Shown here: one piece after another, positions 53,290 through 53,657 of the stretch | How the letters are laid out: every line of letters begins with the position of its first letter | How positions within the stretch are numbered: the stretch's first letter is position 1 | From: Trypanosoma brucei | Lineage: Eukaryota | NCBI GenBank assembly: GCA_000002445.1 | Contig: CP000070.1 | Location: 1,856,001-1,920,000, forward strand | Direction of reading: 5' to 3' | Length of the DNA stretch: 64,000 nucleotides | Program-made: the position numbers and the translations under genes | Notes under the pieces: model-generated | Told to the model about the DNA's origin: nothing | Seen by the model: the letters and a program-made list of their open reading frames with translations, nothing else | Databases searched by the model: none

Positions 53290-53657
53290 ACACCACCTCC
53301 ATTATCGCACCATCAGTCGCTACTGTCGCATTCAGAAGGAGGTTGAGAGCCAACGGCTCAGCGATGTTAACATTGCATTATCCATTTACGCTAGGCAACA
53401 AAAGTGAACAGGTGCAGCGCCAATGAAGCTTTTTAGAAAAGGTGTGGCGTTTGAGTGACTACCAATGCAAATGCAGGTGTGCGGCCATATTCAATGTCCG
53501 CCAACTCCCTTTGTCCTGAGGAGAGTCGAGCCTTGAACGACGTCTTCTATATAACATGACTGGTTTTTCAGCCTCCGAGTTTGTTTTTCTCCGTTACCTT
53601 CCGAGCGCACTTCACGAATCGGTAAAACTACGGCCTTGTGGAGGAGCGAAACACTTC
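53290..53657 (-). repeat. Dispersed copy of the palindrome core plus 35 bp of adjacent arm (inverted relative to 36262-36639)
   Basis: acaccacctccattatcgcaccatcagtcgctactg is followed by tcgcattcagaaggaggttgagagccaacggctcagcgatgttaacattgc...ccgttgggattaacacagt. This is the reverse complement of the unique core at 36297-36639 joined to the inner 35 bp of the arm. Homology ends 4 nt (cagt) into the opposite arm. Confidence 0.85.

What the first reader, a model, noticed from the sequence alone, without database searches (positions are those of the whole stretch)
53290..53657. The palindrome core exists as a separate dispersed copy, which suggests a short-inverted-repeat fold-back origin
The 368 bp segment at 53.3 kb equals the 35 bp inner end of a palindrome arm plus the whole unique core, and it stops only 4 nt (cagt) into the opposite arm. 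This looks like the ancestral, unduplicated configuration of the core. The large palindrome at 36.4 kb could have formed by hairpin or fold-back priming at a short inverted repeat next to this element, as described for palindromic amplicons in Leishmania and yeast. Alternatively, the core could be a small mobile or dispersed element that nucleates rearrangements.
Basis: partly seen in the sequence, partly recalled or inferred. Interest (0 to 1): 0.55.

Follow-up and report, generated by a model that had tools for sequence, protein, structure and literature searches.

The report
Second copy of a palindrome's centre
A 386-bp non-coding stretch that forms the centre of a known 5.4-kb palindrome on Trypanosoma brucei chromosome 7 has one further, inverted copy 16.6 kb away. 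Gene conversion keeps the two alike, and one edge of the match carries a 5-base signature compatible with, but not proving, a fold-back origin of the palindrome.

Summary
The copy is 53290-53675 (386 nt, not 368 nt ending at 53657). It is 100% identical to the reverse complement of 36291-36676, that is 37 nt of arm end, the 344-nt spacer and 5 nt (ACAGT) of the other arm.

The window is T. brucei TREU927 chromosome 7. The palindrome (arms 33776-36295 and 36640-39159) is the published, PCR-verified small-RNA locus Tb927_07_IR4. I did not find the second copy of its spacer described.

T. b. gambiense has both the palindrome and the copy, with the same boundaries. 49 substitutions are shared by both arms and 6 by both spacer copies, so gene conversion homogenises them. 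The 100% identity therefore says nothing about age.

T. cruzi has a single tRNA Asp/Ser/Ala cluster next to the orthologous gene, so the gene-proximal arm is ancestral.

The match ends at the arm/spacer junction in a 5-nt inverted microhomology (ACTGT...ACAGT; chance about 0.1%). This fits a fold-back or template-switch origin. The reverse direction, a patch copied from the palindrome centre into 53.3 kb, is not excluded.

The core has no ORF, no Rfam hit, no unusual fold and no mobile-element ends. Genome-wide copy number could not be tested. Interest is modest.

The parts
33776..36295 (.). Left (gene-proximal, ancestral) arm of palindrome Tb927_07_IR4, 2520 nt. It carries tRNA-Ala(agc) 34510-34583 (-), tRNA-Ser(gct) 34652-34734 (-) and tRNA-Asp(gtc) 34810-34881 (+).
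   Evidence: 100% complementary to the right arm. (tRNAs). (same tRNA order and orientation next to the orthologous gene in T. cruzi). (published as IR4, 2,520 bp, 100%).
36259..36295 (+). Inner 37 nt of the left arm (ACACCACCTCCATTATCGCACCATCAGTCGCTACTGT), shared with the 53.3-kb copy. Its last 5 nt, ACTGT, are one half of the junction microhomology.
36296..36639 (+). Palindrome spacer ('core'), 344 nt. Non-coding, with no detectable RNA family or unusual structure.
   Evidence: (no ORF longer than 39 aa). (no Rfam hit). (fold z-scores +1.04 and -0.50).
36640..39159 (.). Right (distal, derived) arm, 2520 nt. It carries the mirrored tRNA-Asp 38054-38125 (-), tRNA-Ser 38201-38283 (+) and tRNA-Ala 38352-38425 (+). 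Its first 37 nt (36640-36676) are part of the 386-nt repeat.
53290..53326 (+). Copy of the 37-nt inner arm end at the left edge of the dispersed copy (Q).
53327..53670 (-). Copy of the 344-nt spacer, inverted relative to the palindrome's spacer. 100% identical in T. b. brucei.
53671..53675 (+). ACAGT, the 5 nt that also begin the opposite arm. It is the junction microhomology, or alternatively a stem stub. It reads ACAGC in T. b. gambiense.

Best explanation
**Shown.** 53290-53675 is one of two copies in this window of a 386-bp non-coding segmental duplication. The other copy, inverted and 16.6 kb away, is the centre of the known T. brucei chromosome-7 palindrome Tb927_07_IR4. Both copies and the palindrome predate the T. 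b. brucei / T. b. gambiense split. They are kept alike by recurrent ectopic gene conversion, as are the two 2.5-kb arms. The gene-proximal arm is the ancestral tRNA-Asp/Ser/Ala locus and the distal arm is the derived inverted copy.

**Inferred.** The ancestral arm end carried a paralogue of the 53.3-kb sequence (37 nt - core - ACAGT). A broken or stalled 3' end terminating in ACAGT paired with the ACTGT 344 nt upstream on the same strand or on the sister template. It then copied the arm backwards for 2.5 kb, leaving the 344 nt as the spacer. A second switch rejoined the chromosome at 39159/39160. A later arm-to-arm crossover flipped the spacer to its present orientation.

**Consequences (inferred).** No function of the core itself is indicated. 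If the region is transcribed leftward like its genes, the loop of the IR4 hairpin RNA and the RNA of the 53.3-kb copy are complementary over 386 nt. The pair is also a substrate for inverting the 16.6 kb between them.
For: - **Identity and extent:**
- **Organism and locus:** the 337-aa ORF 32189-33202 is 100% identical to XP_846302 of T. brucei TREU927, on a 2,205,233-bp record. IR4 is listed on chromosome 7 with repeat length 2,520 bp, 100% identity, 55,854 small-RNA reads and PCR verification (PMC3447711).
- **Age and conversion:** T. b. gambiense DAL972 aligns collinearly with window 54246-22192. Its arms are 2522 nt and 99.92% alike. 49 of the 50-51 brucei/gambiense substitutions per arm sit at mirrored positions in both arms. 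6 substitutions are shared by both gambiense copies of the core against both brucei copies, plus 3 private changes in each gambiense copy.
- **Polarity:** T. cruzi has one Asp(-)/Ser(+)/Ala(+) cluster about 700 nt upstream of the orthologue, matching the gene-proximal arm. No palindrome was seen in the T. cruzi, T. theileri, T. grayi, T. vivax or T. congolense loci.
- **Junction:** the 5-nt inverted repeat ACTGT/ACAGT lies exactly at the arm/spacer boundaries. ACTGT is the nearest complement to the 3' ACAGT, and the chance frequency is 0.0013.
- **Repair repertoire:** T. brucei end joining is exclusively microhomology-mediated (5-20 bp), and ectopic gene conversion is frequent (PMC3045614).
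Against: - A 5-nt repeat with a 344-nt loop is a weak fold-back substrate. Yeast cases use 40-80 nt spacing and Leishmania uses repeats of at least 200 bp.
- In T. b. gambiense the microhomology is only 4 nt.
- The model needs an earlier duplication of the 386 nt, plus a spacer flip.
- It does not explain why the other homology boundary lies only 37 nt from the junction.
- No genome with an unduplicated or 'empty' state was available, so the direction of copying is not established.
- Within-genome identity of arms could be slightly inflated by assembly consensus.
Confidence: 0.4

Rival explanations
1. The palindrome came first. The 53.3-kb copy is a templated patch copied from the palindrome centre into a break at 53289/53676 by synthesis-dependent, microhomology-mediated repair. 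The single-stranded loop of an extruded hairpin or cruciform would be the accessible template and the stem would block synthesis, so the patch would be the loop plus short stem stubs of 5 and 37 nt.
For: - Both homology boundaries lie within 37 nt of the two stem/loop junctions. A loop-centred copy explains this without coincidence.
- MMEJ-based ectopic gene conversion has been demonstrated experimentally in T. brucei (PMC3045614).
- It needs only two events.
- The copy sits at a GC-skew switch in an ORF-poor region and disrupts no recognisable gene.
Against: - Loop-specific templating is speculative.
- No target-site signature or empty site could be examined.
- The model leaves the origin of the palindrome and the exact 5-nt inverted repeat at its junction unexplained. 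A stub of exactly the length that mimics a microhomology is not predicted.
Confidence: 0.3
2. The 386 nt (or the 344-nt core) is a member of a dispersed repeat or small mobile-element family that seeds rearrangements. The two copies here are just the local members.
For: At least 773 low-copy intergenic repeats of 200-2,500 bp were reported in T. brucei (PMC4028189). Genome-wide copy number could not be tested here.
Against: - There are only two copies in 64 kb, with no diverged relatives.
- There is no target-site duplication, no terminal inverted repeat beyond 5 nt, no poly(A) tail and no ORF.
- One end of the match coincides with the arm/spacer junction rather than with an element end.
- T. 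equiperdum contigs are consistent with a two-copy node.
Confidence: 0.12
3. The core is a functional element (an ncRNA gene, or a regulatory or small-RNA-generating module), and selection rather than gene conversion keeps the two copies identical.
For: IR4 yields AGO1-bound small RNAs, and the authors note that spacers of the inverted repeats also give small RNAs. Two inverted copies inside one transcription direction would form a 386-bp dsRNA (inference).
Against: - The core and its copy diverge between subspecies by 2.3%, faster than the unique non-coding flanks at 0.4-1.6%. That is the opposite of purifying selection.
- There is no Rfam hit, no unusual fold and no ORF.
- No siRNA-producing convergent unit is listed near this part of chromosome 7.
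Confidence: 0.1
4. The palindrome or the duplicate is an assembly artefact.
For: Perfect identity of the repeats. The T. equiperdum scaffold is visibly mis-threaded at these repeats.
Against: - The separately deposited T. b. gambiense assembly has the same architecture with its own substitutions.
- IR4 was verified by PCR in strain YTat 1.1.
Confidence: 0.02

Closest known systems
Tb927_07_IR4, one of seven long inverted repeats of T. brucei that yield AGO1-bound small RNAs (Tschudi et al. 2012, PMC3447711)
   Same: Chromosome 7, repeat length 2,520 bp and 100% arm identity. This is the palindrome in the window.
   Different: That paper does not mention the tRNA content of the arms, a second copy of the spacer, or conservation and concerted evolution in T. 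b. gambiense. These are added here.
Fold-back or short-inverted-repeat template-switch palindromes (yeast ODIRA at SUL1; fold-back inversions)
   Same: A ~5-nt interrupted inverted repeat sits exactly at the arm/spacer junction.
   Different: ODIRA repeats are 40-80 nt apart and give inverted triplications. Here the spacing is 344 nt, and there are two arm copies integrated in the chromosome.
Leishmania repeat-mediated amplification (Ubeda 2014, PMC4028189; Laffitte 2014, PMC4256157) and the low-copy intergenic repeats those authors counted in T. brucei
   Same: The core and its copy form a low-copy, non-coding, same-chromosome inverted repeat of 386 bp. That is the size class used as a rearrangement substrate.
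   Different: Leishmania products are extrachromosomal linear amplicons running to a telomere and formed at pre-existing long repeats. IR4 is a stable internal palindrome whose own junction has only 5 nt of repeat.
Sex-chromosome palindromes of primates, maintained by arm-to-arm gene conversion
   Same: Arms are near-identical within a genome but diverged between taxa, which is concerted evolution.
   Different: The arms are far smaller (2.5 kb), carry tRNA genes, evolve faster than their flanks, and the spacer itself has a converting paralogue.
MMEJ and one-sided MMEJ-based ectopic gene conversion in T. brucei (Glover, Jun & Horn 2011, PMC3045614)
   Same: This provides the repair chemistry for both a 5-nt junction and a copied ectopic patch.
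   Different: Those events were induced experimentally at I-SceI breaks. Here they are only inferred from the sequence.

Membership tests
Tb927_07_IR4 (published long inverted repeat) | T. brucei chromosome 7; arm length 2,520 bp; 100% arm identity | tested here: met
   Arms of 2520 nt, 100%. The window's 337-aa ORF is identical to the TREU927 chr7 protein. Table 3 of PMC3447711. Exact chromosome coordinates were not checked, because the window's position is not given.
Tb927_07_IR4 (published long inverted repeat) | Source of AGO1-bound small RNAs | not testable with these tools
   Taken from PMC3447711. No read data were available here.
Fold-back / short-IR template-switch palindrome | A short inverted repeat lies exactly at the arm/spacer junctions in the unduplicated configuration | tested here: met
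   ACTGT...344 nt...ACAGT in the 53.3-kb copy. It is the nearest complement, and the chance frequency is 0.0013. Only 4 nt in T. b. gambiense.
Fold-back / short-IR template-switch palindrome | Closely spaced repeat halves (tens of nt; 40-80 nt in yeast ODIRA) | tested here: not met
   The spacing is 344 nt.
Fold-back / short-IR template-switch palindrome | ODIRA product is an inverted triplication | tested here: not met
   Only two arm copies in the window and in the gambiense loci.
Fold-back / short-IR template-switch palindrome | A true ancestral allele (arm + core + native flank, unduplicated) exists in a relative | tested here: inconclusive
   T. cruzi has a single tRNA cluster, but its non-coding DNA cannot be aligned to the core. 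No close relative lacking the palindrome was available.
Leishmania-type inverted-repeat amplicon | Formed at pre-existing inverted repeats of at least ~200 bp; extrachromosomal linear; extends to a telomere | tested here: not met
   IR4 is internal to the chromosome, with unique flanks on both sides. Its junction repeat is 5 nt.
Dispersed repeat / mobile element (retroposon, MITE) | Target-site duplication, terminal inverted repeats or poly(A) tail, defined ends | tested here: not met
   The flanks CCCG | ... | GAGG give no TSD. There is no TIR beyond 5 nt and no A-run.
Dispersed repeat / mobile element (retroposon, MITE) | Many copies genome-wide | not testable with these tools
   No T. brucei genome can be searched by DNA here. 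There are two copies in 64 kb.
Palindrome with arm-to-arm gene conversion | Arms more alike within a genome than orthologous arms between taxa | tested here: met
   0 of 2520 (brucei) and 2 of 2522 (gambiense) differences within genomes, against about 50 between them, 49 of them shared by both arms.
Structured ncRNA gene | Rfam match, or a fold more stable than shuffles | tested here: not met

The most novel reading that the evidence does not exclude
The inverted spacer copy is functionally coupled to IR4. Within one leftward polycistronic transcript, or between transcripts, the otherwise single-stranded loop of the IR4 hairpin RNA pairs with the RNA of the 53.3-kb copy into a 386-bp duplex. 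That would account for small RNAs arising from an inverted-repeat spacer without antisense transcription. The same pair would toggle the orientation of the 16.6-kb block (truncated trans-sialidase + CEP44-like gene) by crossover. The T. equiperdum junction arm-core-37nt-rc(53289...) would then be a real inversion isomer rather than a mis-assembly.
Probability: 0.12. Interest if true: 0.5.

Novelty: new member of a known kind. Interest (0 to 1): 0.3.

Why it matters
The palindrome itself is already published. This analysis adds three things.

- Its spacer is not unique. This matters for anyone mapping small RNAs or designing probes or primers to IR4, because spacer reads map to two places.
- The arms, the spacer pair and a neighbouring 521-bp repeat all evolve in concert between T. 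b. brucei and T. b. gambiense. This is a natural, non-VSG read-out of ectopic gene conversion in core chromosome regions.
- One palindrome junction carries a 5-nt inverted microhomology. This is a rare natural footprint of how a stable long palindrome may arise in an organism for which NHEJ has not been reported.

None of this overturns current views.

Tried and rejected
- **Rfam:** gathering thresholds on the whole window, and E<=1 on 33-56 kb, gave only tRNAs.
- **ORFs and Pfam:** the core has nothing longer than 39 aa. The 206/231-aa arm ORFs and the small ORFs beside the 53.3-kb copy have no Pfam hit and look non-coding.
- **RNA folding:** neither strand of the core differs from shuffles.
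- **Sensitive search for homology:** none found between the flanks of the 53.3-kb copy and the palindrome or its flanks. The only hit is a weak 69-nt match (68% identity) between the tRNA-Lys and tRNA-Ala genes.
- **Search for diverged extra copies in the window:** none.
- **Inverted arms or TSD around the 53.3-kb copy:** only chance-level short matches.
- **The look-up of encoding contigs:** found nothing on record for the TREU927 protein and the T. congolense CEP44 homologue. The TREU927 chromosome and T. congolense synteny at the 53.3-kb side therefore could not be fetched.
- **T. congolense, T. vivax and T. grayi loci:** no tRNAs or palindrome upstream of the orthologue, but the contigs are short.
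- **T. equiperdum:** one contig ends 32 nt into the left arm. The scaffold L003 joins arm + core to the left flank of the 53.3-kb copy after a 10-N gap, and also takes an odd path through the 1.6-kb trans-sialidase repeat. I judged this to be mis-threading at two-copy repeats, so it is not usable as evidence of an inversion.
- **Supplements of PMC3447711:** no coordinates are given for the 'miscellaneous' chr7 small-RNA loci, and no convergent unit is listed near 1.9 Mb.
- **Genome-wide copy count:** not possible, because the DNA collections hold no trypanosome genomes.

Full report
**1. What is in the sequence**

A self-comparison of the window gives four repeat pairs:
- A palindrome with arms 33776-36295 and 36640-39159 (2520 nt, 100% complementary) around a 344-nt spacer, 36296-36639.
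- A 386-nt inverted match between 36291-36676 and 53290-53675 (100%, ungapped).
- A 1603-nt direct repeat, 40098-41700 and 61800-63402 (99.8%).
- A 521-nt direct repeat, 24569-25089 and 28877-29397 (100%).

Read on the + strand, the copy at 53.3 kb (called Q here) consists of:
- 37 nt identical to the inner end of the left arm (ACACCACCTCCATTATCGCACCATCAGTCGCTACTGT);
- the reverse complement of the whole spacer;
- ACAGT, which is also the first 5 nt of the right arm.

Its end (53657), length (368) and the figures '35' and '4' should read 53675, 386, 37 and 5. No third or diverged copy exists in the 64 kb, and Q has no inverted arms of its own.

**2. Where we are**

Long intron-less ORFs lie almost all on the minus strand. 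They include trans-sialidase domains, an EF-hand protein and a CEP44-like protein. The 337-aa ORF at 32189-33202 is 100% identical to XP_846302 of Trypanosoma brucei brucei TREU927, on a record of 2,205,233 bp.

Each arm carries tRNA-Ala(agc), tRNA-Ser(gct) and tRNA-Asp(gtc). A tRNA-Lys(ctt) lies at 54941-55014.

**3. The palindrome is already known**

Tschudi et al. [quoted passage not shown] Tb927_07_IR4 is on chromosome 7 with repeat length 2,520 bp and 100% identity. [quoted passage not shown]

The authors remark that spacers of the inverted repeats also yield small RNAs, and they speculate about selection for arm identity. I found no mention of a second copy of the IR4 spacer there, or in two follow-up papers.

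**4. Comparative evidence**

Two loci from T. b. gambiense DAL972 (L001, L004) align collinearly with window 54246-22192.
- *Palindrome:* it is present with arms of 2522 nt that differ at 2 positions.
- *Arms:* they differ from the brucei arms at about 50 positions each, and 49 of these are at mirrored positions in both arms.
- *Q:* it is present with the same boundaries. A four-way alignment shows 6 substitutions shared by both gambiense copies against both brucei copies, plus 3 private changes in each gambiense copy. One of these turns the terminal ACAGT into ACAGC.
- *521-nt direct repeat:* it behaves the same way, with 7 shared differences.

The duplication and the palindrome therefore predate the subspecies split, and they are homogenised by gene conversion. 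The present 100% identity carries no information on age.

Between-subspecies divergence by region:

| Region | Divergence |
|---|---|
| Arms | 2.0% |
| Core | 2.3% |
| Q | 2.3% |
| Unique non-coding flanks | 0.4-1.6% |

None of the arm substitutions falls inside a tRNA gene.

**5. Polarity**

In T. cruzi (two assemblies) the orthologous gene is preceded, about 700 nt upstream, by a single cluster Asp(-), Ser(+), Ala(+). This is the same order and orientation as the gene-proximal arm in T. brucei. There is no inverted duplicate within 10 kb.

T. theileri has one tRNA-Ala there. The T. grayi, T. vivax and T. congolense contigs have none, and none of these loci has a palindrome. The gene-proximal (window-left) arm is therefore ancestral, and the distal arm is the derived inverted copy. 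As far as sampled, the palindrome is specific to the T. brucei group.

**6. The junction**

On one side, the homology between Q and the palindrome ends exactly at the arm/spacer boundary. The shared 5 nt make an inverted repeat, ACTGT ... 344 nt ... ACAGT.

In a strand built like Q, the nearest complement of a 3'-terminal ACAGT is the ACTGT 344 nt upstream. A 5-nt inverted repeat at that spacing is found at 0.13% of positions in the window.

In T. brucei, end joining is exclusively microhomology-mediated (typically 5-20 bp), and ectopic or one-sided MMEJ gene conversion is documented (PMC3045614).

**7. Limits of the fold-back reading**

- Q is not the ancestral locus. It has only 37 nt of arm, and its flanks share nothing with the palindrome's flanks. 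It can only be a paralogue of the ancestral arm end.
- With the left arm ancestral, fold-back on 37nt-rcCore-ACAGT gives arm-rcCore-arm'. The observed orientation needs a later spacer flip by arm-to-arm crossover. That is plausible for 2.5-kb identical arms, but it is an extra step.
- The cited precedents differ. Yeast ODIRA uses ~5-nt repeats 40-80 nt apart and gives triplications. Leishmania uses pre-existing repeats of at least 200 bp and makes extrachromosomal linear amplicons.
- The other homology boundary, only 37 nt from the junction, is unexplained by fold-back. It is natural if Q was copied from the palindrome's loop plus short stem stubs.

I therefore rank the options as follows: fold-back or template switch on a Q-like arm end at about 0.4; a templated patch from the palindrome centre into Q at about 0.3; a wider repeat family at about 0.12; a selected functional element at about 0.1; an artefact at about 0.02.

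**8. What the core is not**

The core has no ORF longer than 39 aa, no Rfam match and no fold beyond shuffled controls. It has no TSD, TIR or poly(A). It evolves faster than its surroundings, which argues against selective constraint.

**9. Consequences (inferred)**

All recognisable genes in the window are on the minus strand. If that strand is transcribed through the region, the IR4 loop and Q are complementary in RNA over 386 nt. This offers an alternative to antisense transcription for spacer-derived small RNAs.

The pair is also a substrate for inverting the intervening 16.6 kb. T. b. brucei and T. b. gambiense have the same orientation. A T. equiperdum scaffold shows the junction expected of the inverted isomer. 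It does so next to a 10-N gap, and the same scaffold is mis-threaded at another repeat, so I treat it as an assembly error.

The six tRNA genes in the arms may explain why IR4 small RNAs were Dicer-independent (inference).

**10. Verdict**

This is a real, correctly spotted duplicate of the centre of a known palindrome. It is an ordinary low-copy intrachromosomal repeat under gene conversion, of a class counted in the hundreds in T. brucei. It carries one informative junction that is compatible with, but does not prove, a microhomology-primed origin of the palindrome. Interest is modest.

Noticed in passing
window 33776-39159 versus L001/L004: Between T. b. brucei and T. b. gambiense the arms (2.0%), core (2.3%) and the 53.3-kb copy (2.3%) are about twice as diverged as the unique non-coding flanks (0.4-1.6%; pooled about 0.9%). 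Unbiased gene conversion alone should not raise the rate. Possible causes are mutagenic repair, relaxed constraint or deeper coalescence.
   Followed up: partly
window 34510-34881 and 38054-38425: None of the ~50 arm substitutions between the subspecies falls inside the six tRNA genes, although the spacers between the tRNAs are peppered with them. The six tRNA genes might also account for the Dicer-independent small RNAs reported for IR4.
   Followed up: partly
window 24569-25089 and 28877-29397: A 521-nt direct repeat flanks the EF-hand protein gene (25848-28778). The copies are 100% identical within each subspecies, with 7 differences between subspecies shared by both copies. This is concerted evolution of a second repeat pair.
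   Followed up: partly
window 39981-41264 and 60651-62966 (repeat 40098-41700 = 61800-63402): A truncated 427-aa trans-sialidase copy lies beside the distal arm. It duplicates the 5' part and upstream region of the full 771-aa trans-sialidase gene 21.7 kb away (99.8%). The neighbourhood has undergone several segmental duplications.
   Followed up: no
window 44541-60650; skew reversal about 49.7-53.7 kb: A ~16-kb stretch has no convincing ORF, only a tRNA-Lys at 54941-55014. GC skew is positive from about 49.7 to 53.7 kb, against the negative skew of the surrounding minus-strand genes. The sign change on the right coincides with the 53.3-kb copy (left flank +0.12, right flank -0.12). This could mark an old inverted block or a change in transcription.
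   Followed up: partly
L003 (T. equiperdum CZPT02000287.1) 1-1260 and 12826-20525; L002 position 1: The scaffold joins arm (35673-36295) + core + 37 nt directly to the left flank of the 53.3-kb copy, after a 10-N gap. It then passes through the 1.6-kb trans-sialidase repeat from 41701 into 61799. By extrapolation from the contig length, its two ends map near window 54.94-54.97 kb, which suggests a circular path. Contig L002 stops 32 nt into the left arm. This is probably repeat mis-threading, but it is also what an inversion or a tandem/circular amplification would give.
   Followed up: partly
window 33764-33775 and 39160-39171; L001 4047-4058 and 9422-9433: In T. b. gambiense the arms extend 12 nt further out (ATACCCCTTCCA in both arms). 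In T. b. brucei the left arm has ATACGATC there. The outermost edge of the palindrome has escaped, or lost, homogenisation in one lineage.
   Followed up: partly
window 17600-19400: An AT-rich island (GC 0.37) with TA, CA and GA microsatellites lies between minus-strand genes. Its nature was not examined.
   Followed up: no
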